From the NCBI GenBank assembly GCA_964016885.1, contig OZ024743.1, forward strand, positions 203,732,001 to 203,796,000: DNA of 64,000 nucleotides, given 5' to 3'. Positions 34,465-62,687 of this stretch are shown in pieces (positions within the stretch are counted from its first letter, which is position 1; each line of letters starts with the position of its first letter). A model generated the notes under the pieces. The model saw only the letters and a list, made by a program, of their open reading frames with translations. It was not told the DNA's origin and ran no database searches. The DNA is from Eledone cirrhosa (Eukaryota). The position numbers were made by a program, and so were the translations under genes.

Positions 34465-37400
34465 ACTTTCTTTATTAACCACAAGGGTTTACATAAAGTA
34501 GACATTAAGGACAGTACAGGACAATACAGGACGGTACAAATGGCATTTCTGCGTGTAAAAAACAAAAACAGAGGATGTAACAAAAAAAATAACATTGGAT
34601 TTCTGGAAGTTGTCCATAGGCCCCGGCCCGAAAGTTCTTCCGAAGAGACTGGCTAGTTGATTTTCGTCGACGCCTAGAGTTTCCCCAAGTACGTCGTCGC
34701 TCTTCCCCTCCACTAATCCTCTATAGAACGCCAAGGTGGCGTTTCCACCGATCACATTGCCCGATTGGTCGAGGGCTGTGAGCGCCTGAAGACATTCCAG
34801 TCTCCAAGCGCTCACTTTCGGTCTTCGCTTGACCCAGGACTGCAGCTCCGTCAAGGAGACGAGCTGGGGAAAGACGCGTCTAGCAAACGGCGACCATACC
34901 TGATCACCGTAGAGGAAGAGGTGGAGATGTCGTAGCCTGAGCGCGTGTCTGCGCATCATCAGCCACGGCATGCCCAGCGATCCACGTAGCAGGTGTTGAC
35001 AGCAGATGGACCGCCTGACCATCGGAGCGCGTCCCTTCGACAAAAAGCGAAAGATCAAACGCTCCAGCGCAGTCAGGCGGGACTTAGGACAAGGTACAAC
35101 GGTCAGGTGGTAGTAGATGACGGACGCGAAGTACGCGTTAGCCACCTCCGCTCGACCTTTCAGGGATAGCTCCCTCTCCTGGGTGAGAGAAGCCACCCTG
35201 CTCGTCACCTCGTCCCAGTTTTTGTCCGTCTGGAGGTCCGGACCGAACCAGACCCCTGGCAATTTAACCAGTCCGTCCGTCCATCGCCCGACGACGCTGT
35301 TGGACGGCATGGACCTACCTCTCCAGGTGCCGAGCTGCAGGCCCACTGACTTTTCCTGGTTGATCATTGCTCCTGTCACCGCTTCGTATTCTCTTAGTAT
35401 AGTGCCGATCGCCTAGATGTGTTTGGCGTTCGACACCACTACGGTGACATCATCCGCATATGCTGACATGGATCTTCCGCATCCTAGTTCGCGCGGGACC
35501 CCCCTCAACGACTCCAGTTTGTGCAGTAATGGCTCGAGAGTCAATACTTACCAGAGGGACGAGAGGGGACATCCTTGAGCGCATGATGTTGAACGGTTCC
35601 TAAATGTGACCATTCACTCTCACCACAGAGCAGATGTCGCTGTGTATGGCAGCGATCCAGCCTCTGAAGACGTGCCTAAAGCCAGCCGCCCTCAGGACTG
35701 CCGATAGGTAACGATGGTCGACCCTATCGAAAGCTTTCGACTGATCTAAATGGATCAAGGACCCACCTGTGCCAGGTTCCCTAGCTACCCTCTCTACGAT
35801 GTATCGCATGAGGTGGAGGTTGTCGTGGATGGATCTGTCGGGAATGGCGCATGTCTGCGCCTCTCCCACCAGATCACCAACGAAAAGCGCCAACCTCTTT
35901 GCTAGCACCTTGGCCAAAATCTTGAACTCTGTGTTTAGCAGAGTTATGGGTCTGAAATTATCTATGTTATCCCCCTTGTTCGGATCCTTTCTCAGCAGTG
36001 CCACCGCCCTTCGGGTCACAGAGCTGGGAATTCTCCCGTTCTGTTGCCAGTTGCAGTAGACGTCCGCCAAGAGGCCTCCGAACAAGTCTGGTATCTGTAC
36101 GTAAAGTTCATAGGAGAGACCGTCCAAACCAGGCGATTTACCCCTTGTGCAGCAAGTCATTGCCTCCCGTACTTCAGCGGCTGCTATCGGCTTTTCGCAA
36201 CGCTCCGCCTCAGTGGCCGAGAGCCGCGGCAGTCCGTCGAGGTGGACACTAAAGTCCATCCCTCGACCCGGCCCGCCGATGCCCCCGAACAGCTGAGCGA
36301 AGTGTCGCTGAAAAGCTTCACACATTTTCCCGGGATCGTGTACATGCGCCCGTCGTGGTCCATCAAAGACCTGATCGTGACTTTGTTGCCACGACACGCC
36401 TCCGCCACTCGGGCCCATTGAACGGCTCTTGCACCTTCCTCCCCTATCCGCTAATCCCATACAGTCCCAGCGTGCATCTAAGATCCCGTTCCAGTCGCCC
36501 ACTCCACTAAATTGCGGGACGTTCCAAGAAAGGTCTCCAGATGCCGGAAGAAATCAGGGCGCCCTGCTCCTGTCGGGGCATAGACGGCCTCTAGCCTGAA
36601 AGTTTGCCCGTCTCCACTGGTCACGTCTAGCACCACCAACTTACCTTCTGGGTCCAGGAAGATGGCCCGTATGGCGAGATCCAAACCTCTCCGAAAAAGC
36701 ACGGCAACTCCTCCTCCCGATCCAGGACGCTGGGAGATGCGTACACATCGTAGCCGTCGAAGATAGGTGCGAAGGCCCGTGCTTCGGAGATTCTGGTCTC
36801 GCTGATGGCCACTACATCTATGTTTAGTGACCTGAGGTCGTTGAGCAGGTGGCCCTGCTTCCATGACGACTCCAAGCCACGCACTTGTATGCTGCCTATT
36901 CTGAGTGAGGTCATGTTGAAATGCAGTGGAAAAAATGGGAAAGACCACTTACCTTACTTCTCGTAGAGGAAGGATGGTTTCTCCATCCTTCTCACTGCTT
37001 GTTTCCTCCTCCGGAAGGATATCCTTATAAATCCTCCTGGAGAGTACTTGTCAGAAGTCTCCGATGTCTTTGGGGAATTTTTGTTTTAGTGTCGTGCACG
37101 TTTTCTGTGTGATGCGAGTGATTTGTATGTGATGCGAGTGATTTGTTTGTATGATGGTGTTGGTGTTTGTGGTGGTGGGGTTGGTGATGCTCGTGTGGAT
37201 GGTGGCATAGCTGTCCTAACTTTTTTGTTTGATAGTTTATTTGTTTCCCTCTGTATTTTGTTTTTGGAGGGGGAAGGAAGGGGATTTTTTTCTTTTTTGG
37301 TTTCTTTTTCTTTTTTTCATTTTTCCTGATACCGTTTCCCACTCCTCGTCGTCACAATCTATCTCCAGTTGCGATAGGTCGGGGAGTGGAAAAAACTCCA

Positions 37401-38888
37401 CAGGCGTTGGTTTTCGTTGTGGCGTAGTGGATGGTGTAGGCGCTGGTGCTAGTTCTGGCGCGTTGGGTGGTGGTGGTGTTGGTGTTGCTACTGTAGCTGG
37501 GGTTGTTGCTGTTACAGTTGTTTCTGTTTTTGCTGCTACAGTTGTTGCTGCCATTTCTGCTGCTGGTGGTGTTGCTGGTTGAGTCACTAGCGTGGGTAAG
37601 AGAGATGGCCTCAACCTTTTAGCCTGAGGGCAGAAAGCCCTTAGGTGGGTTCCTTCACCACAAACGACAGACCTAGGCCTTCTGTCCTCGACGATTACGG
37701 TAGGGTGGCTTCCGTCAGTGAGGTCTATTACCTCTGGGATCTCCTCAATGCTTTTTTGGTCCGCTTGGATCAGGAGCTCCATCCGAGATCCGGACCAGTT
37801 CTCCTGCTTTTCTTTCGCTATTTCGATTATCTTGGTGTTGGCCTCGATGCCGGCGAGGACGGCAGCCATTAGCCAGGGAATTTCGATGGCCGGTGGAACG
37901 TGGGTCACCCTGATCTTCACGAGTCTCTGGCCACCATAGCTTGGGACGAGTGTGAAGTCGTCACTTCTTAATGGGGCCACGGAGTGTTCTCTGGCCTCCT
38001 GTGGTGTTCCAAAGAACACGTCCACGGTTCCATATATCTGCCCAAGTCTGATGTGGGGTTTTTGCCCACACATTTCCCAAAGCATTTTGGATTTGGGACT
38101 CGGATGCCCGTTCCACTCGGCGCAATTTTATGTGAATCGTTCAATAAGACACGGTGCATAGGCGCCGATGCTCCATTTTATTAAGTGGGGGGGGCTGACC
38201 CTGTACCCATCTTTCTTTACCATTCTCTTGGCTTCATCTAATTCCTCCTGAGTTACTTGGATTGCTTCGCACTTTTTTGCTACTCTGGCAAAAGACAGGG
38301 TGGTTTTCTTATTCTCATTGTTGTTGTTGTTGTTATCGTTATTTTTGTTATTGTTATTTTTAGTTTCAGTTGTGGTGGTGGTGGCGTCAGTGGTGTTCCG
38401 TGTGGAAGAGTCCATTCTGGGTGAATCCATTTCGATGTCACGAGATAATTTATTTTTTTCTTTTGTTTCTGTTGTCGCTGTGGTGGATGGTGGTGGTAGC
38501 GGCTTCAACACCTGCAGTCATTGGTAATGGCGGGAAATGAATGTCTGCATGAGACAAATTTAAATTGTTGCTACTGCTTATATTTTTAGTGTTGGCAAAC
38601 GTAGTAATATTTACAATGGTGGTGTCGGTGTGAGGTGTTAGTTTGTGAGGAAGTTGTGACTCTGAGTCATCCAAGATATTTTTTCAAAGAAATTTTTTGT
38701 TTGATAATTATAAAAGTTTAAATTTTGGGCTCAAGGCCCCAATCTTTTTGAGTGTTCTTTTCCGAAAGCAAATTTTGTGACCTTATAAATAGTTCAACAA
38801 AAATTTTCCATACATGGCAATTTTAAACAAACGAAAACAACAAATCTTTGCGGAGCTCAAGATAATACGATTTCCTACGTAGGTCGCC
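34465..38888 (-). mobile_element. Tx1-like LINE copy 1 (family-A ORF2, divergent ORF1; internal deletions)
   Basis: ORF1 remnants at 36949-38674. ORF2 from 36914 with APE (GDWN) and RT (FRPITLLN, LDQSKAFDRV). Two deletions of ~0.6 kb. Bounded by (ATT)n. Confidence 0.9.
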
Positions 38889-38906
38889 AATAATAATAAT
38901 AATAAT

Positions 38907-41900
38907 GATTTCATTTATTCGCCACAAGGGCCGACATATAGGGGACAATACAAAAGAATGGGACAGTTGGGTTTTACAAAAAAATCGAGTAAACAATATG
39001 AATAACAATAACAAAGTAACAATAAATTTACAACAACAAAAAATTCCCCAATAGGGGGGATGACCACCCAGGGTTCGCTCAGGTACACCACCAATCCTGA
39101 ACGACCCGACGCTTCGAGAGCACCCTCGAAGGGCACCCCTCTCCGCCTCAAATTTACCTACCTACATGACCAGATTAGGCCCACTCACACATTCACCCAC
39201 CTTTCAGCAAATGTACTGGGGAGAAGCACTTCTCTCTCCACCCTCATCTTCCCTTCCAGGTGAAACTTGAAAAAGTTGATGAGGGATTGGCCGAAGAGAA
39301 AAGTGTCTGTCTTCAGCCCTTTCAACCTCGTCCACCATACAACCTCTTTCGCTACTGCCACCAGACAGAGGAAAATTGCTGCCCTTCCTAGCCAAAAGAA
39401 GGCGGCGGTTCGATCTTCACTATGTACACGGCCGGTAGCCGGATCCGTTCTACACGCGACAACAGCTGTTCAAAATAACTCCACAAGTCAGTAATGCACG
39501 GACATTGGACGAGTGCGTGCAAAACAGTTTCGTCGCTCTGCGCGCATCTCGGGGAGGTCCGTCTGACAGCACTTCCGTGCCTGTAGAGTTTATCTCGAAC
39601 CGGCATGACCCCCGGTAGCACTGCCAAGCGAGGGATTTTTGGAAATTATCCATCGTTCCCGGCTCGAAAGTCCTTCGGTACAGACTTGTTGGTTCGACTT
39701 CGTTGACTCCCAGAGCCTCTCCGTGTGCGTCGTCGCATTGCCCACCACTAATCCTCTATAGAACTCGAGAGTGGAAGTTCCACTGACCGCATTGCCCGCC
39801 TGGTAGAGGGCAGTGAGTGCCGGGCTACATTCCAGATGCCAGTCACCCAGTCTCGGTCTCTTCTTGACCCAGGACTGCAACTCAGTCAAAGAAACGAGCT
39901 GCGGAAAGGCCCGTCTGACAAACGGCGACAACACCTGTTCACCGTTTAGGCAGAATATCTGGAGATGCCGCAGCCTCAGCACGTGCCTGCGCATCATTAG
40001 TCACGGCATGCCCAGCCCTCCACGTAGAGGGTGCTGTCAGCAGATGGACCGCCTCACCAGCGGAACTTGTCCCCTCCACAAGAATTTGAAGAGGAGCCGC
40101 TCCAAGATGGCGAGGCGCGAATGGGGGCAAGGGACGACAGTCAGACGGTAGTAGATGACGGACGCGATGTACGCGTTCGCCACCTCCGCCCCACCTTTCA
40201 GTGATAGCTTCATCCCAGCCCATTTCTGGGTGAGACTGACTACCCTGCCCGTCACCTCGTCCCAATTGTTATCCATCTGGAGGTCTGGCCCGAACCAAAC
40301 CCCTAGCAACTTTACCGGTCCGTCCGTCCAGCGCCTAACGACGCTGTTGGACGGCATGGACTTGTGTCACCAGATGCCGAGTTGCAAGCCACCCACTTTT
40401 CCGGGTTAAGGTTTGCTCCCGTCAACCTTTCATATTCCTCCAATAAGTTGCCGACCACCTCGATTTCTAAGGTGTCCGACACCATCACGGTGATGTCACC
40501 CGCATAAGCCGACACAGCCTTTCCGCATCCCGGTTCGAGCGGGATGCCCTGCAACAGCTCCAGCTTCCGCAGTAAAGCCTCGAGAGTCAATAAGTACAGA
40601 AGGGAGGAGAGAGGGTACCCTTGACAGACCGATCGGGAGACCTGAAACGGTTGCGAGAGGTGGCCATTAATTTTGACCATCGAGCAGGTGCCGCTGTGCA
40701 TTGCAGCGATCCAGCTTCTGAAGACGGGGCCGAAGCCAGCCGCCTTGAGGACAGCCTCTAGGTATCGATCGTCGACCCTATCGAATGCTTTCGATTGATC
40801 TAAATTTATCAGAGACCCACCGAAGCCAGGTTTACACCATACCCTCTCTATGGTGTATCGCATTAGGTGGAGGTTGTCGTGTATGGACCTGGTTGGGATT
40901 GCGCAAGTTTGCGACGCCCCAACCAAATCCCCAGCAACAAGCGCCAACCTCTTCGCTAACACCCTGGCCAAAATCTTAAACTTTGTCTTGAGCAGAGTTA
41001 GGGGCCTGAAATTGTCTAATGTGTCCCTCTTGTTCTCGTCTTTCCTTATCAGAGTCACTACGCCCCGGCTCACAGAACTGGGAATACCCCCGTTTTGCTG
41101 CCAGTTGCAGTAGAGGGCTTTGAGGAGATTGAAGAACAAGTCTGGCATATTTACGTAAAGCTGTAGGGCAGACCATCCAAACCGGGTGACTTGCGCCTCA
41201 TCTAGCCGACAAGGGCGCCCTGAATCTCGGCTGATGTAATTGGCCTTTCGCAGCGGACAGCGTCAGCCGTCGAGAGTTGCGGCAAGCCATCGAGGTAGGG
41301 ACTGAAATCCGCCACCATCTCTGACCCGCCACTTCCCCCGAACTACCGAGCAAAATGTTGGCGAAAGGCAAAATGATGGAATCGCTCAGCTCGTGCCCGT
41401 CTCGGTCCGTCAAAGACCGAATCGTGGTTTATTACCACGCTGCGCCACTGCCACGCGAACTCATCGAACAGCTTTGGTTCCCTCGTTTCTCAGAGCACGC
41501 GCCTTAGCTCTGACAATGCAACCTTCGTGTTTCGCATTGAAGAAATGGTCTAATGCCATTCTCGCCGCTAGCACATCAGTTGCAATGCCACTACCAATAG
41601 CCTCGTCTAACTTATCTACCAACTCCCCCTTCTTTCTATTTTTCTCTAATACTACTTCTTTGCTAAACTCTATCGACATTACTCTAATCTCTCTTTTGAG
41701 AGCCCCCCACCATCTATTGTTGACGACTCCCCATGTCAACTTTTTCTTAACTAAATTGTTGACCTGGTCCCTGTAAGCCTTACGTGCTGGAAATGACATG
41801 TTTAGCTTCCAGTAACCACGTCTAAACCTACGCGTCTTATTTAGGTCGAACATACAGATCACAAATTTGTCATCTGAGTAGGTGACCGTTTCAAAACGTG

Positions 41901-44721
41901 GACAGCTTACACTATTTCTGTCTATTTTCCTAATGAATATCCTGTCTATATACGATCTAGATGACCCTATGCGGTTAGCCCAGGTCCACACTGGCGCATT
42001 AGGGAAATCTAGTCGGTACCTGTCAGGCATTTGGAACTGGCTGATCAGGTTCTTGAGGCTTTTGCACCTCCCGCTCTTATCAGATACTCCCACACAGTCC
42101 CAGCGTGCGTCTAAGATGCCCTTCCAGTCCCCCGCTAACAGTAAAGGGCGAGACGTACCCAGAAAGGCTTCCAGGCGTCTAAAGAAGTCCGGCCGTCCTG
42201 CCCCAGTAGGAGCATAGACGGCCACCAGTCTAAAGGCACGACCTTCGTTATTGTTCACGTCCAGGACCACCAACTTCCCGTCTGGGTCCTGGAAGATCGA
42301 CCATACCTCGAGATCCAGGCCTTTCCTAAACAGCACTGCCACCCCGCCTCCCATTCCCGACCGGCTAACAGATGCAAAGATCTGATAGTCGTCGAAAATG
42401 GGGGCTAGTGAGCGCATGTCGGAAATCCTGGTCTCGCTGACAGCAATTACATCTATTTCTAGAGACCTGAGGTCGTTGAGCAGGTGACCCTGCTTCCAGA
42501 ACGATCCCAGGCCTCGAACATTTAAACATCCTACTCTTAATACGGCCATGTTGGCAGATTAAAAAGAGAGAGAGGAAAGGTTTACTTACATTCCGGGCTC
42601 TTGTAAAGGTCGGGTTGTTCGACCTCCATAGTTGGTGGGGTTTATTTTGGAAACCCCTTTAAAAGTCTTGAAGTGGATTTTACGTTCGGGGTTCCCAGGA
42701 AAGTTGTCTCGTATTTCTTTGAATATGTCGATCGACATTCGCACCAGAACCAGATCTTCCGGCACGCGAAATGTGCTCGATTTAAAGATGTCCCCCTCTT
42801 TTAGTATATTTTCAGTTCCCTGTTGGCCCTCCTGACGAGCACGAAGTTTTGTATGTTTTGTTGGTGTGATTTTATTTGTTTGCGTGGCTGTGGTGGTGAT
42901 GGTTTTGGTGGTGTTGTTTCGGTTGTATCTGTGTTTGTTGTGAGTGCGGTGTCTGTGGTTTCAGATGTTTGTGTGTATATTTGTTCTTGCGTCTGTTTCG
43001 GTTGTTTGCGTTTGGGGGATTCTGGTGATGGTGATGGTGGTGTTGATGTTGGTGTTATTGGAGAGATGTTTGCGTGGGTGGTGTCTGCGTTTTTTATTGT
43101 GGGTGATTTTGTGCTTTGTTGAGCTTTTTTTTTCTTTTTGTGTTTCCTTTTTTGTATTTTGGGGGATTTTGGTTTCCCTCATCTTCACTACTGGTAGATG
43201 AGGGGTCTGTGTCTGTAAGTGTGTCTGTATGTATGTTTATGGTTTTATTGGTGTGTGTATTTGGTGGGGGGGGGATTTCAAGCTTTCCTCGTTTCCCCCC
43301 CTGGGTGGTCAATTTTGTTGGTGGTCTTTCTATTGGTGTTGTTGTTGGGGGTTTTGCCGGTGCTGGTGTTGGTTGTGGTCCTCGCCCCGGCGTCGGCAGC
43401 AGTGGAGTCTTTCAACCTCTTGCCTCTTTCAGCAGTTGAGGGCAGAAGGCTCGCAAATGGGTCTTTTCCCCACAAACAAAACACTGCGGCCTTTTGCCTT
43501 CGGTCATAATGTGAATGACCGTCCCATTCTGAAGGTGGATGTGGTCCGGGATTGTCTTCACATTCTCGGGCCTGATCTGGAGAAAGATCTCCAGGTCAAC
43601 CCCGGACCAGTCCTCTCTGGCCGTTCTGGTCACTTCTATAGGGATGGTATCCGTCCCCTCCATAATCACACATCCCAGAAGCCACCACATGTCAAGTCCT
43701 GCTGGGATTCTGGGAATGCGGAGACGGGCCGTTCCTTTTCCCATGTGGGAGGGGTACATTATGACCTTGCTGGTTTTTCAAGGAGTCATAGCGTGTTTCA
43801 TAGCGAGGGCTTCTGACTTGAACAACACCGAATTGGTGCAGTACCCTCTGCCCCTCTCTATGTATTCGGTGTCTTCTCTGATGCACATCAGTGCGACTTC
43901 GACATCTGCTTGTGGGATTAAAGCTGCCCTTTTGGTTTGTGCTGAAATGCATCTATAATGCACCGTTCTGCGCTCCACTGCCTCAATAGCTTCTACCGGG
44001 ACAGTTAAGTTGGCCCAGGTTTGCTCTTGCTTGATGAGCTTCCATGCCTTGGCCAACTTTTCATCTTTGTTTGAGAGGTCCATGTTAATGCATGGCCTCT
44101 GTTTTGCTGCTGCCGCAGCGAAAGTGTTCTTCTTGTTTTCGTTGGGGGTGTTGTTGTCGTTGTCGTTATTCTTGTTGGTGTTGTTGTTATCACTGTCGCT
44201 GATATCATTGTTGTCTTTGTTGCCACCGTTTTTCTCGGTGCAGTTGGTATTGTTGCTGTTGGTGTTGTCGCTATTTGTTTTCATGTTAGTGGTGTTGATA
44301 TTGTTGTTGCATTTGTTATTTTTTATTTTTGTTATCTGTATTTTCGTTGTCGCTGTTACTGTCATTTTTTTCAAAATTAGAGTTCTCATTGGTATCATTG
44401 GTGTCTTTGTTTACATTGTTTGTGGTGGTGTTTGTGTTATCAAATTGTGTTAATTTCGCTGTAGCGCTCCTCTCAACTTCTACGTCGTTGTCGCACGCCC
44501 GCAGACATATCACTGGGGTCGTAGCTCAGCCATGTTTTTTTTTCTCCGTAAATTTTTTAAAATGTAAAAAAAGTTCAAATATTTGGGCCAAAAGGCCCAA
44601 ATATTATACTTTGCCCTTTACAGGGCAAAGTCTAAGGGCTTATATCCCTTACACAACAAGAAATATTTAACAACAAATAAAGCGACTTACTGGGAGCGAG
44701 CAAAATACATCCGATTAGACC
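38907..44721 (-). mobile_element. Tx1-like LINE copy 2 (family B), full-length, frameshifted
   Basis: ORF1 44533-42586 with CCHC (CFVCGEKTHLRAFC). ORF2 from 42549 with APE, RT (SAYAGD) and C-terminal CCHC-like region. Bounded by (ATT)n. Confidence 0.9.
41461..42549 (-). pseudogene. ORF2 APE endonuclease domain of copy 2
   Basis: LNVRGL...SETR...VYAP...GDW...IDRIF...SDDK, followed by WKLN. Confidence 0.85.
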
Positions 44722-44747
44722 AATAATAATAATAATTATAATAATAA

Positions 44748-44977
44748 GTGGCAGTTAAAAAGGATTTGGAACTGCCATGAGATCAAGGTCGTTCCGATTG
44801 TCATAGGAGCACTAGGTACTATTTCAAAGATTTTCCAAGGATGGTTAAAGAAGATTAGTCCAGCCCTGTTTTTTGGAACACTTCCAAAGGCATGTTTGCT
44901 GGGAACAGCAAGAACCCTCTGATACGTCCTGAACAACTGCTGCTTGATATTCATTTGAACAAACTGTGACTCAAAGA

Positions 44978-44978
<1 letters not shown>
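44748..44978 (+). mobile_element. 5'-truncated R4/Dong-like RLE retrotransposon fragment in (TAA)n
   Basis: Translates KWQLKRIWNCHEIKVVPIVIGALGTISK...LPKACLLGTARTL*YVL, the R4/Dong-type C-terminus. Flanked by (TAA)n on both sides. Confidence 0.8.
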
Positions 44979-45031
<53 letters not shown>

Positions 45032-45269
45032 TTTTCTATATTAACCACAAGGGTTTACATAAAGTAGACATTAAGGACAGTACAGGACAATACAGGACGG
45101 TACAAATGGGCATTTCTGCGTTTAAAAAAAACAGAGGATGTAATAAAGTAACAAAGGAAAATTCCCCAATAGGGGGGAGACTTCCGAGGGACATTTGTGG
45201 AGAAAGCCCATTAAAAGATAACAGTGACCCTCACCACCAGGGCAAGTGCCCTCTCCCAGTTTTCCACCT

Positions 45270-48200: not shown

Positions 48201-48694
48201 AGCCTCTTGCACCCTCCTTCCCTCTTGCACCACTCCACACAATCCCAGCGTGTATCTAAGATCCCGTTCCAGTCGCCCACTAACACTAAAGAGCGGGACG
48301 TTCCAAGATAGGTCTCCAGACGCCGGAAGAAATCAGGCCACCCTGCTCCTGTCGGGGCATAGACGCCCACTAACCTGAAAGCTTGCCCGTCTCCGCTGGT
48401 CACGTCCAGCACCACCAACTTACCTTCTGGGCCAGGAAGATGGCCCGTATGGCAAGATCCAAACCTCTCCGAAAAAAGCACAGCAACTCCTCCCCCCGAT
48501 ACCGGACGGCAGGGAGATGTGTACACATCGTAGCCGCCGAAGATCGGTGCGAAGGCCCGTGCTTCGGAGATTCTGGTCTCGCTGATGGCCACTACATCTA
48601 TGTTTAGTGACCTGAGGCCGTTGAGCAGATGACCCTGCTTCCATGACGACCCCAAGCTACGCGCATTTATGCTGCCTATTCTGAGTGAGGTCAT
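45270..48694 (-). pseudogene. ORF2 (APE + RT + C-terminal CCHC) of copy 3
   Basis: 880-aa ORF with GDWN, YLDR, TDH, SPGLDG, LDQSKAFDRVD and SAYADD; continues in the 45328-46230 frame to RCAQGDETVLHALVQC. Confidence 0.9.
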
Positions 48695-48729
48695 GTTTAA
48701 AATAGAGTAGAAAAGATGGGAAAGACCAC

Positions 48730-50851: not shown

Positions 50852-51085
50852 GTTGTTTTTTGTTTAAAATAAATATTGGGCACAAAACCCCAATAAGCAG
50901 TTATTTAACTCCGAAGGGCCAAATAACGGGCAGAAAGACCCCTCTCACGAGGAGGAGGGTGTTTTTGTCTACAAGTTGGTTAAAGTTTTAAACAATTTAC
51001 AATTGTTATAGCGGTCAAAATTTACAATACCTTACAGAGCCGAGCCTCCGTCAACCATAGCATTCAATAATAACAATAATAATAA

Positions 51086-51130
51086 TTGTTTCTTCTTTAG
51101 GCACAAGACCAGCAATTACCCAGTGCATTT
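51086..51130 (-). mobile_element. SINE-A 3' fragment between copies 3 and 4
   Basis: TTGTTTCTTCTTTAGGCACAAGACCAGCAATTACCCAGTGCATT matches the SINE-A tail. Confidence 0.8.
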
Positions 51131-54100
51131 GATTTCTTTATTGGCCACAAGGGCTGACATCAAGAAAAAACATCACAGACGGAACAGGATGGTACGATGT
51201 GGGTTTTGTGCGTGTAAATATTTTTATTATTTATATAAGAAAAGAAAAATGACATAAAACATATATATACATAAACAATAAAATGAAAATTGAAACAATG
51301 AAAAATTGCCCAATAGGGGGGAAACCTCTGAGGGTGACTCGTGGCGAAAACCACACATAAGACCACGGCCACCCTGACTACCAGGGCAAGCGCCCTCTCT
51401 CAATTTTTCCATCTCTCAAACTACAGACGTATATTCAGAGTGGTCCCGTTCACTCGGACCATTCTCGCTACATTCACCCACCTTTCAACAAACTTGCTAG
51501 AAAGCAGCACTTGCCTCTCCACCCTGCTTTTATCTTCAAGTGAAACTTGAAAATGTTAATCAGGGATTCGCCGAAGAGGAAAGTGTTTGTCTTTAATCCT
51601 TTTAACCTTGTCCACCACACAATCTCTTTTGCCATGGCCACCAGGCAGATGAAAACCGCCTGCCCTTCCTCCTCAAAGGAAGACGGCGAGACCATCTGCA
51701 CAATGGACTCAGTCGACAACCAGATCAGTCCCCACACGTGACAGCAACTGTTCGACATAGCTCCACATGTCAGCAATGCTCGGGCACTGAACGAGTGCGT
51801 GCACAACGGTTTCCTCGCTATGCGCGCATCTCGGACAGGCTCGGCTGACGGCACTTCCGTGCCTATAGAGCTTATCTCGAACCGGCAGCGCTCCCCGGTA
51901 GCACTGCCAGGCCAGGGATTTTTGGAAGTTATACATAGGCCCCGGGCTGAAAGTTCTCCGGAAGAGAGCAAGCATCTGATCTTGTTCGACGCCCAGGATC
52001 TCTCCGAGAACGTCGTCGCTCTTCCCCTCCACTAGTCCTCTATAGAACGCCGAGGTGGATGTTCCACCGATACTGGAGCCCAACTGAGAGAGGGCAGTGA
52101 GCGCCTGGAGACATTCCAGTTTCCAAGCGCTATCCCTCGGTCTTTTTCTGACCCAAGACTGCAGCTCCGTCAAGGAGACGAGCTGTGGAAAAATGTGCCT
52201 GGCAAACGGCGACCACACCCGTTCACCATCAAGGAAGCACCAGAGATGTCGTAGCCTCAGCGCATGTTTGCGCATCATCAGCCATGGCATGCCCAGTCCT
52301 CCACGCAACGGGTGTTGACAGCAGATGGATCGTCTGACCATGGGAGCACGTCCCTTCCACAAAAAGCGGAAGAGGAGGCCTTTCAGGGACAGCTTCCTCT
52401 CAGCCCATTTCTGGGTGAGGGAGGCCACCCTGCTCGTCACCTCGTTCCAGTTTTTCTCCATCTGTAGGTCCGGTCCGAACCAGACCCCGAGCAATTTAAC
52501 CGGTCCGTCCGTCCAACGCCCCACGACGCTGTCGGACGGCATGGACTTGCCTCTCCAGGTGCCTAGCTGCAAGCCCACCGACTTTTCCTGGTTTATCTTT
52601 GCTCCTATCACCGTTTCGTATTCCTTGAGAGCGGTGCCGAGCATCTGGACGTGTCTGGTGCTCGACACCACCACGGTGACGTCGTCAGCGTAAGCCCACT
52701 CGGATTTCCTGCATCCTAGTTCGCGTGGGACTCCCCTCATCGCCCCCAGTTTGTGCAGTAACGGCTCGAGAGCCAATACGTACAAGAGGGACGAGAGGGG
52801 ACAACCCTGGCGGACTGAGTGCATGATGCTGAACGGTTGCGACAGATGACCATTCACGCTCACAACTGAGCAGATGTCGCTGTACATTCTTGCGATTCAA
52901 CGCCTGAATACGGGCCCGAAACTGGCTGCCTCGAGGACCGCCGCCAGGTACCGATGGTCAACACTATCGAATTCTTTGGATTGATCAAAGTTGATCAGGG
53001 CCCCACCCTTGCCAGGTTCCTTAACCGCCCTCTCTATGATGTATCGCAAGAGGTGGAGGTTGTGGTGTATGGATCTGTCCGGGATGGCGCATGTCTGCGC
53101 CTCTCCCACCAGACCCTTGACGACAAGCGCCAACCTCGTTGCTAACACCTTGGCCAAAATCTTGAACTTTGCGTTTAGCAGGGTTATGGGCCTGAAATTA
53201 TCAATAACATCCCCCTTGTTCGGGTTTTTTCTCAGTAGCGCCACTGCTCCCCGGCTCACAAAACTGGGAATGCTCCCGTTCTGCTGCCAGTTGCAGTAGA
53301 CGTCTGCCAAGAGGTCACCGAACAAGTCTGGCATAAATGCATAAAGCTCGTAGGGCAAACCTGGCGATTTACCTCTTGTGCAATTAGCCATCGTTATTGG
53401 CTTTTCGCAACAGTGTGCTGCGGTCGTCGTGAGCCGAGGCAGTCCGTCGAGGTATGCACTGAAGTCCATGTCCCGATCCGGGCCGCCGGCGCTCCCGAAC
53501 AGTTCAGTAAAGTGCTGCTGAAAAGCTTCACACATCCGCTCGGGTTCGAGCATCACGGACCCGTTTTGGTCAGACAAAGACCGAATTGTGGCTTTGTTGC
53601 CACGTCGCGCCTCTGCCACCCGGGCCCATTGGACGGCTTTTGTCCCCTCGTGTTTCAGAGCACGCGCTCTAGCTCTGACAACGCAGCCTTCGTGTTTTGC
53701 GTTGAAGAATTGGTCGAGTGCCAATCTCGCCGCAAGCACGTCGGTTGCGATACCTGTCCTAAACGCCTCTTCTAGCTTTCTGACTAGCTCTCCCTCTACT
53801 CTATTTTCCTCTATCACTACTCCTTTAATTGCCCTTTTCAGGGCGAATCACCACCTGTTGTTGACGACCGCTCCCGTCAAGGCCCGCTTAACTAATACGC
53901 TAATCCGGTCTCTGTAGGCTTTGCGCGCCGGGAAAAACGCGTTCAGCTTCCAGTAACCAGGCCCTTGTCTATGAAGCCTGTCTATGTCGATCTCACAGAT
54001 CACAAATGTGTGGTCTGTGTAGTCGACTATTTTAAATTGTGGACAACTTATACTAGCATTATCTAGTTCTCTGCAGAATACCCTATCTAGATACGATCTG

Positions 54101-57041
54101 GATGACCCGATACCGTTTGTCCATGTCCACATTGGCACATTCGGGTGATCCAGTCGATACCTGTCAGACAGTTCAAAATGTCTGAGCAGGTTGGTGAGGT
54201 TCTTGCACCCTTCTCCCCTATCCACTAGCCCCACACGATCCCAGCGTGCATCCAAGATACCGTTCCAGTCGCCCACTAACACTAAAGAGCGGGACGTTCC
54301 AAGAAAGGTCTCTAGACGTCTGAAGAAATCTGGCCGTCCTGCCCCTGTTGGGGCGTAGATGGCTACTAGCCTGAAAGCATTGCCTTCGCTGCCGGTCACG
54401 TCCAGCACCACCGACTTACCTTATGGGTCTAGGAAGATGGCACGTATCGCGAGATCCAAGCCTCTCCGAAAAAGGACGGCAACCCCTCCCCCGATCCTGG
54501 ACTGCTGGGAGATACGTATACATGGTAGCCGACGAAGATCGGCGTGAAGGCCTGTGATTCGGAGATTCTGGTTTCATTGATGGCCAGGTGACCCTGCTTC
54601 CAAGATGACCCCAGGCCACGTGCATTTATACTGCCTATTCTGAGTACAGCCATGTTGGATGAGAAACGGGGCAAGTGAGAAAGGATCACTTACCTTGTTC
54701 GTGTGGTGAAGGGACAGTAGAAGCGTCCCTTGTGCTGGTCATGGGTGTTTCCAAGAGGATGTCAGTGTATATCCTCTTGGCAACCGCCCCTCTGAAGTCT
54801 CCAACTGCGTTGGGGAATTTTTGTTTTAAAGGTTTGTACTGTTCTATTGAAATTTCGATGATGCTTATGTTTGTCAGGAGAGTTCTTGGTGTTGGTGGGG
54901 TGTAGTAGTTTTTTTCTGTGACGTCTGTGTGCTGCTTTATATATTGTATGAGTTCTTTTTTTGCCATGTTTATGGCTGTGTACTTTTGGGGGGAGGGGTG
55001 ATTTTGTTGCTGTTTTCTTCTTGTTGCGGTTTGGTGTGTGTGTCTTGTTGTGTTTGCGTTGTTGGTGTTTGTGGTGGCGATGGTGGTGGTGTTGCTGCAA
55101 GTTTCCTTGCTGCCTTTACCCCTCTTTGTATGCCTTCGCTGTTGGAGGGTGAATCTAATGTTTTTTTTTGTTTTTTGTTTTTTGTGGCAGACTGTTTGCC
55201 ACGTCACTCCCGCCTCAAACTCCATGTCGGATTCTGTGGCGTCTGGGAGGGGTATGTGCTCCACTGCCGTTGGTGGTGGTAGTGGAGCCTCTTCGGCAAT
55301 TTTGTTGCTGGTGTAGCTACTTCAAATGTAGCTATTGGTGTTGCCGCTACTGATGATGCTGCTTTAGTTATCCGTGGACTTGGTACTGGTGCTACGGACG
55401 TTGCCCTCCTACTCACCGTGGAAGGGGCTTCTTCGTTTGTTGCCTGCCCTGCTCTTGGCAGCAGCGGAGCAGGTATTGGAAGGAGGGGGGCCTTCTTCGC
55501 TGTCTTCTGCGGGTAAAAGGCCCTGAGGTGACCCTTCGACCCACAGAGATAACATTTTGGCCGTCTTCCTTCTACACTTATAGGGAGTTGGAGTCCTTCC
55601 TCGATGTCTATGATATCGGGGATAGCGTCGATACATTCCTGGTCAGTTTGTATAAGCATTTACATGCCTATACCTGACCAGTTCTCTCTCCCTATTTGTT
55701 CTACTTGCAGCATGGTCGCTCTGTTCTCGATTCCTGCAAGGAGAGACGCGGCCAGCCAAGGTATGGGCACGTCGGGTGAGACCTGGGTCACACGAACCTC
55801 ACAATTTTCTTCCCGCAGTAGGAGGGCACCAAGACTATCTCCTCACTCTTTAGGGTTTCCAAAGAGTGAGACTTTGCTTCCTGGGGTGTGGCGAAAAGTA
55901 CGTCTACTGTGGCGTACTTTCTGCCTCGGGTGATGTGGGTTTTGCCGGCCCAGACGCACCCCAAGGCCTTTTGGATTTGAGCCTCCGTGGCACTCTTTAT
56001 TCGATGTGAGATTTTACTTACGGTGCGGTAAGTCAGCGTCTGTAGCTGCTGGTCCTTGAAAAAATCTGGTGGAGTGTTCAGGGAAACTCTATTTGTGCTT
56101 CTTGTCACCATGGCCCTTGCGACTGCCATCTCCTCCACTGTGACTAACACTGTCTCGATATTTCGGGCGACACCTGCAAAAGAAGTGGTCCCTTTTTCAG
56201 CAGCACCACTATTGCTGCCGCTACTGGTCTTACTGGTGGTGATGAGATCGCTATTACAGGTATCGGTGTCATTGTTGTTGTTTTCGTTGGTACAGTTGTT
56301 GGTGTTGTTGTTTTCGTTGATACTCTTGCTGTTGTTACTGTTATTGTGGCTGTTGTTATTATTGTTGTTTTTGTTGATACTGTTCCTACTATTATTGTTG
56401 TTGTGGCTGTTGTTATTGTCATTGTTATTGTCGTTCTCGACCTTACCGCTGTTATTTTTGTTATTGTCGTTCTCGACCTTACCGCTGTTATTTTTGTTAT
56501 TGTCGTTCTCGACTTTACCGCTGTTATTTTTGTTGTTGCTGTTGTTATTGATGGTGTTGTTGTTGGTGTTGTTGTTGGTGTTATTGTTGGTGTTGTTTGT
56601 GTTAGAAATATTTGTTAATTTTAAATCTGTAACAATCTTTTTTTCCTTTGTAATATTTTCGTTTGTATTTCCTTTGTAATATTTTCGTTTGTATTTCCTT
56701 TGTAATATTTTCGTTTGTATTACCTGGAACGCTGTCTTGTTGACATGCTGATAAAGTCTCTCTCTCTCTCTCTCTCTCTCTGTTGTCTGACAGCGTCTCT
56801 CTCTTTCTTGTGTTATCCATGTTGAAATTTTTCAAAAAAAACATGTTTACACAAATACGAATACGAATACGACACCCTGTAAAGGGGTGCGGTATTATTT
56901 ACTAGTGAACCCCTGTATGAGGTGGGTCACTTCTTCTAAACTTTTATTAAATGTAAAACTTGAATAAAAGGTTTAGAACGGTTGAAAACGAGGTAAAACG
57001 TTGAAAAAAAAACTGGAGGCGATAAGAAGCGTGGCTTCACC
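51131..57041 (-). mobile_element. Tx1-like LINE copy 4 (family C), full-length, frameshifted
   Basis: ORF1 ~56820-54686 (CYLCGSKGHLRAF). ORF2 from 54653 with AYADD and CPRCAHSEETVVHALVQC. Confidence 0.9.
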
Positions 57042-57058
57042 AACAATAATAATAATAA

Positions 57059-57117
57059 TTGTTTCTACTTTGGCACAAGGCCAGCAATTATCCAGTGCAT
57101 TACTGGTACTTTATTTT
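57059..57117 (-). mobile_element. SINE-A 3' fragment between copies 4 and 5
   Basis: TGTTTCTACTTTGGCACAAGGCCAGCAATTATCCAGTGCATTACTGGTACTTTATTTT, flanked by (AAT)n. Confidence 0.85.
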
Positions 57118-57126
57118 AATAATAAT

Positions 57127-60100
57127 GCTTTCTTTATTAACCACAAGGGTTTACACAAAGTAGACATTAAGGACAGTACAGGACAATACAGGACGATACA
57201 AAAGGGCATTTCTGCTTGTAAAAAAACAAAAAACAGAGGATGTAATAATAGAACAATGAAAAAATTCCCCAATAAGGGGGAGACTTCCGGGGGACTTTCG
57301 TTGAGAAAGCCCATTAAAAAGCCACAGTGACCCTGACCACCAGAGCAAATGCCTCTCCCAGTTTTCCATCTTTAATTTACAGACACAGACTCAGAGTAGG
57401 CCCATTCACTCGGGCCATTCTCGCTTCTCTCACCCATCTTTCAACAAAATGCTGGGAAGAGAGCACTTCCCTCTCTACCCTGATTTTCCTTTTCAAATGA
57501 AATTTGAAAAAGTTAATCAGGGCATCACCGAAGAGGTAAGTGCTCGTCTTCAGCCCTTTCAAGCGTGTCCACCATACTATCTCTTTCGCCATGGCCACCA
57601 GACAGATAAAAACTGCCTGCCCTTCCCGGCTAAAAGAATAGGGCGGGGCATCCTCACGATGGACTCAGCTGATAGCCGGATCCGTCCTACACGCGACAGC
57701 AGGTGTTCGACATAAACCCACAAGTCAGCAATGCTCGGACACTAGACGAGTGCGTGCAGGACGATTTCGTCGCCCTGCGCGCATCTCCCATATGCCCGGC
57801 TGACGGCACCTCCATGCCTGTAGAGTTTATCCCGAACTGGCAAAGCTCCTCGGTAGCACTGCCAGGCCAGGGATTTCTGGAAGTTGTCCATAGGCCCCGG
57901 CCCGAAAGTTCTTCCGAAGGGATTGGCTAGTTGATTTTCGTCGACGCCTATAGTTTCCCGAAGTACGTCGTCGCTCTTCCCCTCCACTAATCCTCTATAG
58001 AACGCCAAGGTGGAGTTTCCACCGATCACATTGCCCGATTGGTCGAGGGCTGTGAGCGCCTGAAGACATTCCAATCTCCAAGCGCTCCCTCTCGGTCTTC
58101 CCTTGACCCAGGTCTGCAGCTCCGTCAAGGAGACGAGCTGGGGAAAGACGCGTCTAGCAAACGGCGACCACACCTGAGCAACGTCGAGGAAGAGGTGGAG
58201 ATGTCGTAGCCTGAGCGGGTGTCTGCGCATCATCAGCGACGGCATGCCCAGCCCTCCACGTAGCGGGTGTTGACAGCAGATAGACCGCCTGACCATCGGA
58301 GCGCGTCCCTTCCCCAAATAGCGAAAGAAGCAAACGCTTCAGCGCAGTCAGGCGGGGCTTAGGACAAGGTACGACAGTCAGGCGGTAGTAGATGACGGAC
58401 GCAATGTACGCGTTAGCCACCTCCGCATATGCTGTTACGGATCTTCCGCATCCTAGTTCGCGCGGGACCCCCTCAACAACTCCAGTTTGTGCAGTAATGG
58501 CTCGAGAGTCAATACGTACAAGAGGGACGAGAGGGAACATCCTTGGCGGACCGAGCGCATGATGTTGAACGGTTCCGAAAGGTGACCGTTCACTCTCACC
58601 ACAGAGCAGATGTCGCTGCGCATGGCAGCGATCCAGCCTCTGAAGACGGGCCCAAAGCCAGCCGCCCTCCGGACTGCCGCTAGGTAACGATGGTCGACCC
58701 TATCGAAAGCTTTCGACTGATCTGAATTGATCAAGGACCCACCTGTACCAGGTTCCCTAGCTACCCTCTCTACGATGTATCGCATGAGGTGGAGGTTGTC
58801 GTGGATGGATCTGTCGGGAATGGCACATATCTGCGCCTCTCCCAACAGACCACCAATGACAAGCGCCAACCTCTTTGCTAGCACCTTGGCCAAAATCTTG
58901 AACACTGTGTTTAGCAAAGTTATGGGCCTAAAATTATCTATGTTATCCCCCTTGTTCGGATCCTTTCTCAGCAGCGCCACAGCTCCTCGGCTCACAGAGC
59001 TGGGAATTCTCCCGTTCTGTTGCCAGTTGCAGTAGACGTCCGCCAAGAGGCCTCCAAACAAGTCTGGCATTTGTACGTAAAGTTCATAGGGCAGACCATC
59101 CAAACCAGGCGATTTACTCCTTGTGCATCCAGTCATTGCCTCCCGTGCTTCAGCGGCTGATATCGGCTTTTCGCAACACTCCTCCTCAGTGGCCGAGAGC
59201 CGCGGCAGTCCGTCGAGGTAGACACTAAAGTCCATCCCTCGATTCGGCCCGCCACTGCCCCCGAACAGTTGAGCGAAGTGTCGCTGAAAAGCTTCACACA
59301 TTTGCCCGGGATTGAGTAGCATGCGCCAGTCGTGGTCCATCAAAGACCGGGTCGTGGCTTTGTTGCCACGACGCGCCTCCGCCACTCGGGCCCATTGAAC
59401 GACTTTCGTCCCCTCGTGTTTGAGATCACGCACCCTAGCTCTGACAACGCAGCCTTCGTGCTTTGCATTGAAGAATTGGTCAAGGGCCAATTTCGCCGCA
59501 AGTACGTCGGTCGCGATGCTTTTGCTAAGCGCCTCGTCTAATTTTCTAATTAGTTCTCCCTCTGCTCTATTTTTCTATATAGCTAAAGCCTTATTAAACC
59601 GAATGGACACTATTCTAATCGCTCTTTTCAGAGCAAACCACCACTTGTTGTTAACGATGGCCCCTGTCAACGCCCGCTTAAAGTTCGCTAATCCGTGTCT
59701 GTAGGCCTTGCGCGCTGGTAAGGACGCGTTTAGCTTCCAGTAGCCGGGTCCTCGTCTATGAAGTCTATGTAACTCAAGCACACATATCACGAATTTGTGG
59801 TCCGTGTAGCTGACTATCTTGAATTGTGGACAGCCTATGCTATAACTATCTATTTCCCTACAAAATACTCTATCTAGATATGATCTGGATGACCCTATGC
59901 GATTTGTCCAAGTCCACATTGGCACATTCGGGAAATCCAATCGGTACCTGTCAGACAGTTCAAAACGCCTGAGCAGGTTGGTGAGGCTCTTGCACCCTCC
60001 TCCCCTATCCGCTAATCCCACACAGTCCCAGCGTGCATGTGAGATCCCGTTCCAGTCTCCCACTACCACTAAAAAGCGGGACGTTCCTAGAAAGATCACC

Positions 60101-62657
60101 AGACGCCGGAAGAAATCAGGCCGCCCTGCTCCTGTCGGGGCATAGACGTCCACTAACCTGAAAGCTTGCCCGTCTCCGCTGTCACGTACAGCACCTCCAA
60201 CTTATCTTCTGGGTTCAGGAAGATGGCCCGTATGGCAAGATCCAAACCTCTCCGAAAAATTACACCAACTCCTCCCTCCTATCCCGGACGGCTGGGAGAT
60301 GCGTACACATTTTAGCCGCCGTAGATCGGTGCGAAGGCCCGTGCTTCGGAGATTCTGGTCTCGCTGATGGCCACTACATCTATGTTTAGTGACCTGAGGT
60401 CGTTGAGCAGGTGGCCCTGCTTCCATGACGACCCCAAGCCACGCGCATTTATGCTGCCTATTCTGAGTGAGGTCATGTTGAAAAGGAGTGGAAAAGATGG
60501 GAAAGACCACTTACCTTACTTCTCGTAGAGGAAGGATGGTTTCTCCATCCCTTTTCACTTCATCGTCTGGTGAAGGGACCGTTGAATCGTCACTTCAGCT
60601 GGTCGTCGGCTCTTTTGTGAGTATATCCGAATATACTCTCCGGATGAGTGTCCCTCCTAGGTCTCTGAAATCACCAACTGCGTTGTGGAATTTCGTTTTA
60701 ATGTTTGTGTATTGTTTCTGTGCTATTCTTACCAGTCTTATGTTCGTTTTGTGTTTTGATTGGTGCTGGTATTATGTAGTCGTGCTGTGAAATGCCTGTG
60801 TGTTCAATTATGTAAGTCATTAGTTTCTTGTTGTGTGTATTTATTGCAGTGAATTTGTTTTTCTGTGGGTGCGGTTCCGCTATTTTCTTGTCGTTGTTGC
60901 TGGGTGTGTGTGTTTTGTTGTTGTGTTTGCCATCCCTCTCCCACCTCACACTCCATGTCCGAATCTGTGAGGTCGGGGAGGGGTACCAGCTCCACTATTT
61001 CACTTGTTGTTGGTAATGTTTGCAGTGGAGTTACTGTTGCAGCTGCAGTTGGTATTACTGTTGTTGTTAATATTTCCACTGCTGCTGCTGTTCTTGATTT
61101 CCGTGGCGTGGGTATGGGTGCAACGGAGCCATCCTTCCTGGTTGCCGCCTGTCCTGTTGCTGGTAGCAGTGGAGCCGGTTTCGGAAGGAGGATGGTTTTC
61201 TCCTTTCTCAGGGTCGTCTCATTGCAGAAGGCCATGAGGTGAGTCTTCGATCCACAGCGAAATCATTTCGGGCGTTTGCCCTCAACACTTATGGGCAGTT
61301 GAGTGCCGTTATCGAAGTCTATCACATCCGGGATAGCTTCGATGCACACCTGGTTGGTTTGGATTAACATCTCAATGGAGGTGCCGACCCAATTTTCTCG
61401 TACTTTTTTCTGTGTTTGTAGTACAGTTGTTTTGTCCTCGATTCCGACGAGGACAGACGCGGCCAGCCAAGAAGAGCCATCCCGGAGGGGGGGGGGGTCA
61501 GTTTAAGCCTCACAATTTTTTGCCCGCAGTAGGAGAGCACCAACACCATTTCCTCGTTCCTTGGGGTCACTAAGGATTGAGCCTTTGCCTCTTGGGGTGT
61601 GGCAAAAAGCACGTCCACGGTGGCATATTTCTTGCCTCGGGTGATATGCGTTTCCCGCTGCCACACAGACCCTAAGGCTTTTTGTATTTGAGCCTCTGTG
61701 GCTCTTTCAACCCTACGAGATTTTGTGCTTACTGTAGTGCTGTTGGGTTTCGAAAAAATTTTCGGCTGCCTTGCAGATTGCTCGGTGTCCGGTTTTCGCC
61801 ACCATCTTCTTTGCTTCCTGTAATTCTTCATTTGTTATAAGGATGGTTTCCAGGTTCTTTGCGATACCTGCAAACGAGATTGGTTTTCTTTCTTGTTGTT
61901 GTTGTAGTCGTCGTCAGAGCTGCTGTTACTTTTGTTGTTGCCGCTGGTACTACGACCGCCGCCGCCGCTGTTGCTGTGGTTGTTGTTGTTGTTGCTGCTG
62001 CTGCTGCTGCTGATGTTGTTGTTGCTGTTGTTGCTGCTGCTGCTGCTTGCTGCTGCTGTTGTTTATGCTGCTGCTGATGTTGTTCCGGCTGCTACTAGTG
62101 TTTTCCTTGTCACTGTTGCTGCTGCTGCCGTTATTACGGCTGCTACTGCTATTCTTCATGACGTCAGATGAATGAAATGGCTTTGCGTATTTACCGCACA
62201 CATTTTTCGTCGTTGTCGTCGTCGTGGAGGAATGTTCCACGGTATGCACGTTCTCTTGGTGAAAACTACCAGAAACTATATTTTTCTTTTTCTTTAAGGG
62301 CGTCGCTTGCGAAAGAAGCGACACCACATTTAGAGAAGGGAGGGAGAGAGACAATCTTCTCTCTGATGTAATTACGATTGAGGAAGAAGAAGACGGAAAG
62401 AGTGGGAGTGACTTGTGAACATTCTTTTTTATAGCCATGTTTTTTTTTTTACGGTTTAAAATGAATATTGGGCACAAAACCCCAATAAGCGGTTATTTAA
62501 CCCCGAAGGGCCATATAAAGGGCAGAAAGACTCCTCTCACGAGGAGGAGGGTGTTTTTATCTACAATTTAGTTCAAGTTTTAAACGATTTACAATTGTTA
62601 TAGCGGTTAAAAATTACTATACCTTACAGAGCCGCGCCTCCGTCAACCAGGGCATTC
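57127..62657 (-). mobile_element. Tx1-like LINE copy 5 (family A), intact ends, internal deletions
   Basis: Closely similar to copy 3 from the 5' UTR to the 3' end. A deletion removes the DD of the RT YADD motif. Confidence 0.9.

Positions 62658-62687
<30 letters not shown>

What the first reader, a model, noticed from the sequence alone, without database searches (positions are those of the whole stretch)
36915..60514. Invariant GTAAGT splice donor on the ORF1 stop codon: ORF2 may be an intron
Seen: all five ORF1/ORF2 junctions have GTAAGT overlapping the ORF1 stop (+ strand ACTTAC at 36947, 42584, 48728, 54688, 60509). It is followed by an AG-free pyrimidine tract and AAC-ATG of ORF2 at a fixed 38-40 nt, although the flanks diverge between families. 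Family-A 3' UTRs carry a strong acceptor-like site, a U-rich tract plus GCAG|AAATG (+ strand CT at 34549, 45116, 57212). Splicing in copies 3 and 5 would replace the stop with an open ~20-codon tail (RNAHLYRPVLSCTVLNVYFM*). Inference: a spliced ORF1-only subgenomic mRNA, analogous to copia gag splicing, could set the ORF1:ORF2 ratio. I do not know of this as a conserved LINE feature. Caveats: the equivalent acceptor reads CGCAC in copy 4 and is unclear in copy 2. Alternatives are U1 binding or a reinitiation signal.
Basis: partly seen in the sequence, partly recalled or inferred. Interest (0 to 1): 0.8.

Follow-up and report, generated by a model that had tools for sequence, protein, structure and literature searches.

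The report
Conserved splice donor inside octopus LINEs
In a large family of octopus-type jumping genes, a splice-start signal sits on the end of the first gene in every lineage compared, but no matching conserved splice-end signal and no spliced copy turned up, so it likely acts as a docking site for the cell's U1 splicing particle rather than cutting out the second gene.

Summary
The window holds a tandem array of Tx1-like LINEs inserted in (ATT)n, in a 3.0-Gb genome of octopod type. GTAAGT lies at all five ORF1/ORF2 junctions. Across 14 lineage representatives from the genome (ORF1 proteins 27-52% identical to the family-D protein), only the 5' splice-site positions -2 to +6 are conserved, while the ORF1 reading frame over them differs between families. 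This points to selection on the nucleotide motif itself. The spacer is 27-52 nt, not fixed. The GCAG acceptor exists only in family A. No spliced genomic copy was found among 2,417 D/E/F junctions, nor in the A1 and C searches. No run on record as RNA holds the element, so splicing is untested. Best reading (0.42): a U1-binding site that likely guards the unspliced RNA. Close rival (0.33): a spliced ORF1-only mRNA with another acceptor, the best candidate being ORF2's own TAG stop. Distant Tx1/L1 relatives lack the feature (2 of 25, 0.67 expected).

The parts
34465..38888 (-). Copy 1: LINE with family-A ORF2 and 3'UTR (internal deletions) and a divergent, frameshifted ORF1
   Evidence: ends approximate
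38907..44739 (-). Copy 2: family C LINE, broken ORFs
   Evidence: 5' end approximate
45031..51065 (-). Copy 3: full-length family A (A1) LINE; ORF2 starts at 48694 (endonuclease, RT, zf-RVT), frameshifted
51131..57044 (-). Copy 4: family B LINE, broken ORFs
57127..62657 (-). Copy 5: family A (A2) LINE with an internal deletion
   Evidence: 5' end approximate
62687..64000 (-). Copy 6: 3' part of a family C LINE; its junction lies beyond the window (L050) and also carries the donor
36947..36952 (-). 5' splice-site motif, copy 1 (ORF1 stop at +2)
42584..42589 (-). 5' splice-site motif, copy 2 (family ORF1 stop at +6; -1 G changed to T in this copy)
48728..48733 (-). 5' splice-site motif, copy 3 (ORF1 stop at +2)
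54688..54693 (-). 5' splice-site motif, copy 4 (ORF1 stop TGA at +6)
60509..60514 (-). 5' splice-site motif, copy 5 (ORF1 stop at +2)
48695..48727 (-). Pyrimidine-rich ORF1-ORF2 spacer of copy 3 (same build in the other copies)
45116..45140 (-). Family-A-only acceptor-like site in the 3'UTR (also at 34549 and 57212)
51421..51423 (-). ORF2 stop TAG of copy 4: candidate acceptor (TAG in B, C, C2, D, E, E2, F; copy 6 at 62939-62941; family A has TAA, 45275-45277 in copy 3)
48281..48300 (-). Second candidate acceptor at about ORF2 nt 413 (TAG kept in all 8 main families and in G, I, J and L261)

Best explanation
A 5' splice-site motif on the ORF1 stop is conserved across all lineages of this LINE group compared here and likely works as a binding site for U1 snRNP on the unspliced RNA, where it would guard the full-length transcript against premature 3'-end formation, with splicing at most a minor side product. 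Shown: the conservation pattern, the frame shift of ORF1 over the motif, the lack of a conserved acceptor, and the lack of spliced copies. Inferred: U1 binding. Inferred and weaker: protection against the poly(A) signals of the A-rich ORF1 end. ORF2 keeps its own AUG in every family and is likely translated from the bicistronic RNA.
For: Only positions -2 to +6 are conserved over 14 lineages, and they match the 5' splice-site consensus (consensus recalled). The motif is the top-scoring of about 300 GT sites in 7 of 8 families, third in A1, on a crude score of my own. ORF1 reads over it in two frames, ending R-stop or G-K-stop, and the tree implies at least two frame changes, so the protein does not explain it. 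ORF1 homologues from Argonauta hians, Octopus sinensis and an ENA record end in E-G-K-S, L-G-K-K-W-K-Q-N and Q-G-K, which is compatible with the same motif; their DNA was not seen. No acceptor is clearly conserved. There are 0 spliced copies among 2,417 D/E/F junctions. In 7 of 8 families an AATAAA or ATTAAA lies 227-381 nt before the ORF2 AUG, and the last 1.9 kb of ORF1 holds 0-5 such hexamers against 0-1 in 3.4 kb of ORF2. Precedent: U1 at the EVD donor blocks premature termination (PMC5580714, section 8).
Against: No direct evidence of U1 binding or of premature polyadenylation. Family B has no canonical hexamer in that part of ORF1. The hexamers lie upstream of the donor and may be by-products of Ile-Asn codons; in EVD the protected sites are downstream. 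Suppression of an upstream signal by a downstream donor is recalled from HIV-1 and was not checked. A perfect donor ahead of about 250 AGs would be expected to splice at some rate. Absence of spliced copies is also expected if ORF2-less RNA is poorly mobilised in trans.
Confidence: 0.42

Rival explanations
1. The donor is used to splice a share of transcripts into an ORF1-only mRNA (ORF2 or its start removed), but the acceptor differs from the one proposed: most plausibly ORF2's own stop codon TAG in families B-F (GCAG in A), or the site at ORF2 nt 413. The spliced RNA makes no active ORF2p and so would rarely be copied.
For: The ORF2 stop is TAG in 7 of 8 families, mostly followed by G. Among about 100-120 YAG sites it ranks at or near the top for upstream pyrimidines in D, E, E2 and F; in A, which lost the TAG, the GCAG site ranks first. 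A stop follows within two codons in the ORF1-matching phase in B, C, C2, D and E, against a background of 3.5%. In copia elements donor quality matters more than acceptor quality (PMC5580714, section 8).
Against: The phase match failed the independent test: L261 and, as far as their 3' ends could be assigned, G, I and J have the stop in the other phase; A's stop is also in the other phase, and E2 and F have none. Synonymous pyrimidines before the ORF2 stop are not enriched (24 of 47 against 48%). In B and C the site ranks only mid-field (10-14 sites higher). The nt-413 TAG is one of 7 such invariant columns. A pattern built to catch this junction found 0 among 2,417 D/E/F matches, and a C pattern gave 4 hits, all unspliced. 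Unspliced RNA already encodes complete ORF1p, unlike EVD.
Confidence: 0.33
2. One reading: all families splice from the donor to a 3'UTR acceptor equivalent to GCAG.
For: In family A the site is the most pyrimidine-rich of 121 YAG sites, and the tail is open in copies 3 and 5.
Against: No AG at the homologous place in B, C, D or F. The A1 search that would catch this junction gave one hit, a 1-nt deletion.
Confidence: 0.04
3. A mini-intron from the donor to an AG at ORF2 +14 or +19 fuses ORF1 to ORF2 in frame.
For: Such AGs exist in most families; +14 fits phase 2 and +19 fits phase 1.
Against: The intron would be only 41-47 nt in E and F. L261 lacks both AGs yet keeps the donor. ORF2p made from such an RNA would copy it in cis, yet no spliced copy was found. 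The ORF2 AUG is kept in every family.
Confidence: 0.04
4. The motif serves translation termination/reinitiation or is a DNA-level factor site that only resembles a donor, as the L1 5'UTR donor lies in a RUNX3 site.
For: It overlaps the stop, beside an unstructured pyrimidine spacer and a good AUG context. L1 precedent: PMC5860796, section 10.
Against: The conserved span equals the U1-pairing span and does not follow the stop when the frame shifts. Pairing with the genome's 18S 3' end beat shuffles in only 1 of 12 spacers. None of 60 copies begins inside the spacer, as an ORF2-only transcript would give.
Confidence: 0.1
5. Neutral inheritance: the motif is kept by common descent plus stop-codon constraint.
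For: The families share one ancestor; 25% of fourfold sites are also invariant; two positions are fixed by the stop in most families.
Against: Six positions invariant over the 8 main families gives about 0.25^6 = 2e-4, or 0.015 if only three are counted as free (my arithmetic). Neighbouring bases and spacer length drift freely.
Confidence: 0.08

Closest known systems
Tx1-clade non-LTR retrotransposons (Kibi, Koshi, crocodilian Tx1; L1-Tx1 of Octopus vulgaris)
   Same: Two ORFs, AP endonuclease + RT + zf-RVT, CCHC knuckle in ORF1, insertion in microsatellites (PMC4494074 passages; PMC13282606 lists 13 recently active L1-Tx1 families).
   Different: No conserved donor at the ORF1 stop appears in the passages read, and distant relatives lack it (2 of 25).
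Ty1/copia donor-U1 system (EVD, Oberlin et al. 2017, PMC5580714)
   Same: A conserved 5' splice site at the boundary of structural and catalytic genes, with a weaker acceptor side; U1 has both a splicing role and an anti-termination role there.
   Different: EVD is an LTR element with one ORF, needs splicing to create the gag stop, and its spliced RNA is documented. Here ORF1 has its own stop and no spliced product is shown.
Human L1 splicing and SpIREs (Larson et al. 2018, PMC5860796)
   Same: A LINE with a conserved internal donor.
   Different: The L1 donor is in the 5'UTR, kept as part of a RUNX3 site, and spliced copies are about 2% of full-length L1s (131 of 6,609; these retain ORF2). 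Here the donor is at the ORF1 stop and spliced copies are 0 of 2,417.
HAL1 (ORF1-only half-L1 elements; recalled, seen only in search listings)
   Same: What a retroposed ORF1-only spliced RNA would look like.
   Different: No such copy was found at the donor junction.

Membership tests
Tx1 clade (L1 group) LINE | ORF2 with AP endonuclease and RT | tested here: met
   PF03372 and PF00078 above cut-off
Tx1 clade (L1 group) LINE | C-terminal zinc-binding domain in ORF2 | tested here: met
   PF13966 27.7 bits, cut-off 27.5
Tx1 clade (L1 group) LINE | Separate ORF1 with CCHC knuckle | tested here: met
   C-x2-C-x4-H-x4-C invariant in 5 families; Pfam PF00098 only weak, E 0.015
Tx1 clade (L1 group) LINE | Target preference for a repeat | tested here: met
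   (ATT)n for A, B and C; (ATCT)n for D, E and F
Tx1 clade (L1 group) LINE | RT phylogeny places it with named Tx1 elements | not tested
   No named reference set was held; the label 'Tx1-like' rests on the features above
Copia-type subgenomic splicing | Conserved 5' splice site at the structural/catalytic boundary | tested here: met
Copia-type subgenomic splicing | Spliced subgenomic RNA detected | not testable with these tools
   No run on record as RNA
Copia-type subgenomic splicing | Splicing is needed to create the structural gene's stop | tested here: not met
   ORF1 ends in its own stop in unspliced copies
Copia-type subgenomic splicing | Conserved acceptor | tested here: inconclusive
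   The 3'UTR site is A-only; the two other candidates are unproven
SpIRE / HAL1-type spliced copies | Genomic copies joined at the donor | tested here: not met
   A2 and B untested

The most novel reading that the evidence does not exclude
A whole LINE lineage makes a spliced ORF1-only mRNA in which the intron runs from the ORF1 stop to the ORF2 stop codon itself, so that ORF2 is a facultative intron: a LINE counterpart of copia gag splicing, conserved across octopods.
Probability: 0.25. Interest if true: 0.78.

Novelty: new variant of a known kind. Interest (0 to 1): 0.52.

Why it matters
LINEs are copied from unspliced RNA, and published work on human L1 treats internal splice sites as a cost. 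A lineage that keeps a near-perfect donor through frame shifts and strong ORF1 divergence implies a benefit: either U1-based protection of its RNA or a spliced route to set the ORF1:ORF2 ratio. Young, intact-ORF families exist in this genome, so one RNA data set or one reporter can decide between these.

Tried and rejected
RNA evidence: no RNA holder was listed. Laying contigs of X1, X2, X5 and X7 on a family-A copy and of X6 and X1 on a family-D copy showed no joint at the donor among the rows shown (in one search, 15 of 503 joints were shown). X2, X5, X6 and X7 look like DNA by my reading of their cover, and X1 barely holds the element; this is no evidence either way. 18S 3'-end pairing: significant in 1 of 12 spacers. 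Mini-intron fusion: see rivals. ORF2-only transcript from a pyrimidine initiator: 0 of 60 copies start in the spacer. Internal deletions in copies: none of 8 breakpoint pairs printed reads as a clear GT..AG intron. HUSH evasion: in PMC8770142 (passages) protection survived deletion of the 5' splice site, so it gives no support. Phase-matched stop after the ORF2 TAG: failed the independent test. Word-indexed protein searches with ORF1 alignments found nothing; the full HMMER scan did. A per-position mismatch count at the end had an offset bug and is not used. Earlier-findings look-ups were empty.
Full report
What the region is. From about 34.4 kb to beyond the window end lie six LINE copies head to tail on the minus strand, separated by (ATT)n. 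ORF2 carries an AP endonuclease, RT and zf-RVT; ORF1 has a CCHC knuckle. The genome is 3.0 Gb. The closest named proteins come from Octopus sinensis, O. vulgaris, O. bimaculoides and Argonauta hians, so the host is of octopod type. I call the elements Tx1-like; no tree with named references was made. The window has three ORF2 families: A (copies 1, 3, 5), B (copy 4) and C (copies 2, 6).

The observation. The five motifs, spacers, AUG contexts, family-A acceptor-like sites and the open tail are as described. Within family A, 27 of 29 oriented loci (30 fetched) keep GTAAGT, which only shows descent. To test selection I searched the genome for non-A ORF2 starts (4,647 matches) and fetched 60 of the first 100 listed, all from contig C1, chosen to cover the families. 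They fall into B, C, C2, D, E, E2 and F plus single copies G-K; a further lineage (L261) came. ORF2 proteins are 66-94% identical, fourfold sites between clades 0.50-0.60, and 70 of 284 fourfold sites are invariant over the 8 main families. ORF1 proteins are 27-52% identical to the family-D protein. 58 of the 60 copies keep GT at the junction. Over 14 representatives, -1G, +1G, +2T and +6T are invariant, -2A, +3A and +5G are 13 of 14, +4A is 11 of 14, and neighbours vary. Five of the 14 (G, H, I, J, L261) are single copies whose deviations may be copy mutations, and the lineages are related, not independent. The motif is the best donor-like site of about 300 GT sites in 7 of 8 families on my crude score. 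ORF1 stops at +2 in A, D, E and F and at +6 in B and C; the tree puts at least two frame changes on this. The motif therefore stays while protein, frame and spacer length (27-52 nt) change. That it is a U1 site is inference from its match to the recalled consensus.

How far it reaches. ORF1 homologues from other octopods and an ENA record end in G-K or close to it (3 of the 6 hits that matched the C-terminal profile), compatible with the same motif in the B/C frame; their DNA was not seen. Among distant Tx1/L1-like loci from metagenomes (80 fetched, 25 with a definable ORF1 stop), 2 have a strong donor near the stop against 0.67 expected. So the feature is lineage-specific.

The acceptor. The GCAG site is in family A only; B reads GCAC, and C, D and F have no AG there. 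A scan of 92 conserved AG columns in ORF2 ranked nt 413 first, but it is one of 7 invariant xTA-G columns. ORF2's stop is TAG in 7 of 8 families, with a pyrimidine-rich approach that ranks at or near the top in D, E, E2 and F and mid-field in B, C and C2. In B, C, C2, D and E a stop follows at once in the frame ORF1 would have after splicing. This looked strong, but L261 failed the prediction, as do A and probably G, I and J, while E2 and F have no such stop, and synonymous pyrimidines are not enriched. The acceptor is unidentified.

Spliced copies. Patterns of the ORF1 end followed by bases that differ from the unspliced junction gave these results. A1: 1 hit, a 1-nt deletion. E/F: 2 hits, both unspliced with small changes. 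D: 0. D/E/F with a second pattern: 1 hit, the same unspliced copy. D/E/F with a pattern built for the ORF2-stop acceptor: 0. C: 4 hits, all unspliced. The D/E/F denominator is 2,417; those for A1 and C were not counted, and A2 and B were not tested. Some exon starts would escape these patterns. Human L1 spliced copies are about 2% of full-length copies (PMC5860796, section 7), but they keep ORF2 and move in cis, so the comparison refutes a spliced ORF1-ORF2 fusion more firmly than an ORF1-only RNA.

Mechanism. Both negatives, no conserved acceptor and no spliced copy, are what a U1 site acting without splicing predicts, and each needs an extra assumption under the splicing model. In the EVD retrotransposon U1 at the donor blocks premature termination as well as enabling splicing (PMC5580714, section 8). 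Here canonical poly(A) hexamers are commoner in the A-rich ORF1 than in ORF2, and one lies 227-381 nt before the ORF2 AUG in 7 of 8 families. I commit to U1 docking that guards the full-length RNA at 0.42, with the spliced ORF1-only mRNA at 0.33. The claim that the motif is a selected U1-type site is the sum of these and the minor splicing rivals, about 0.8. No RNA data were available to decide.

Literature. Ten full-text searches listed no paper describing a conserved donor at a LINE ORF1 stop; the library lacks most subscription papers and Repbase reports, and I read no supplements. Seen: PMC5860796 abstract and sections 7 and 10; PMC5580714 abstract and section 8; passages of PMC4494074, PMC8770142, PMC13282606 and PMC9115989; abstract and outline of PMC10901741; the others as listings only. 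HAL1, the HIV-1 donor effect and cis preference of LINE proteins are recalled.

Verdict. New variant of a known kind; interest 0.52.

Noticed in passing
window 48418-48423, 36639-36644, 54414-54419 (ORF2 nt about 271): A second GTAAGT inside ORF2 of families A, B and C2. The LINE-derived piece in an O. sinensis tectonic-3-like gene model (P0004) ends at ORF2 residue 90, where this donor lies; the model's support is unknown.
   Followed up: partly
3' of the ORF2 stop, e.g. window 51415-51423 and 45269-45277: An off-frame stop follows the ORF2 stop within two codons in most subfamilies, with different stop codons (background 3.5%); it does not track the ORF1 phase, and its cause is unexplained.
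   Followed up: partly
L170 (family G) spacer; also C2, H, K: The spacer looks like a complete 47-nt intron (donor, branch-point-like motif, pyrimidine tract, TAG) in the single G copy; C2, H and K also have a TAG before the AUG.
   Followed up: partly
L141-L169 against L115-L140: Two target preferences in one lineage: D, E and F insert in (ATCT)n, while A, B and C insert in (ATT)n, often in mixed tandem arrays.
   Followed up: partly
L148, L149, L158, L164: Copies with long open ORF1 and a full 1,145-codon ORF2; family D copies reach 99% identity to their majority sequence, so these families are young.
   Followed up: no
window 36996-38888: Copy 1 joins a divergent ORF1 and 5' end to a family-A ORF2; A-like sequence starts shortly before the donor.
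   Followed up: partly
L204, L238, L188: In one unrelated L1-like group from metagenomes, donor-like sites lie at or near the ORF1 stop in 2-3 of 4 loci; not significant over all 25 loci.
   Followed up: partly
L189, L190, L245, L250: Some distant relatives have a T-rich tract ending in AG shortly before the ORF2 AUG, i.e. an acceptor-like site.
   Followed up: no
L037, L045, L046, L054, L063, L071 and window copies 1, 4, 5: Internal ORF2 deletions are frequent and mostly differ from copy to copy.
   Followed up: partly
window 2975-5084: A 2.1-kb degenerate (CAA)n array of about 700 units.
   Followed up: no
window about 16450-16810, 23140-23300, 26470-34450, 57040-57120: Many copies of a short interspersed repeat of about 150-190 nt, one lying between LINE copies 4 and 5.
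   Followed up: no
L112-L114: The genome's 18S rRNA matches are about 2,870 nt long.
   Followed up: no
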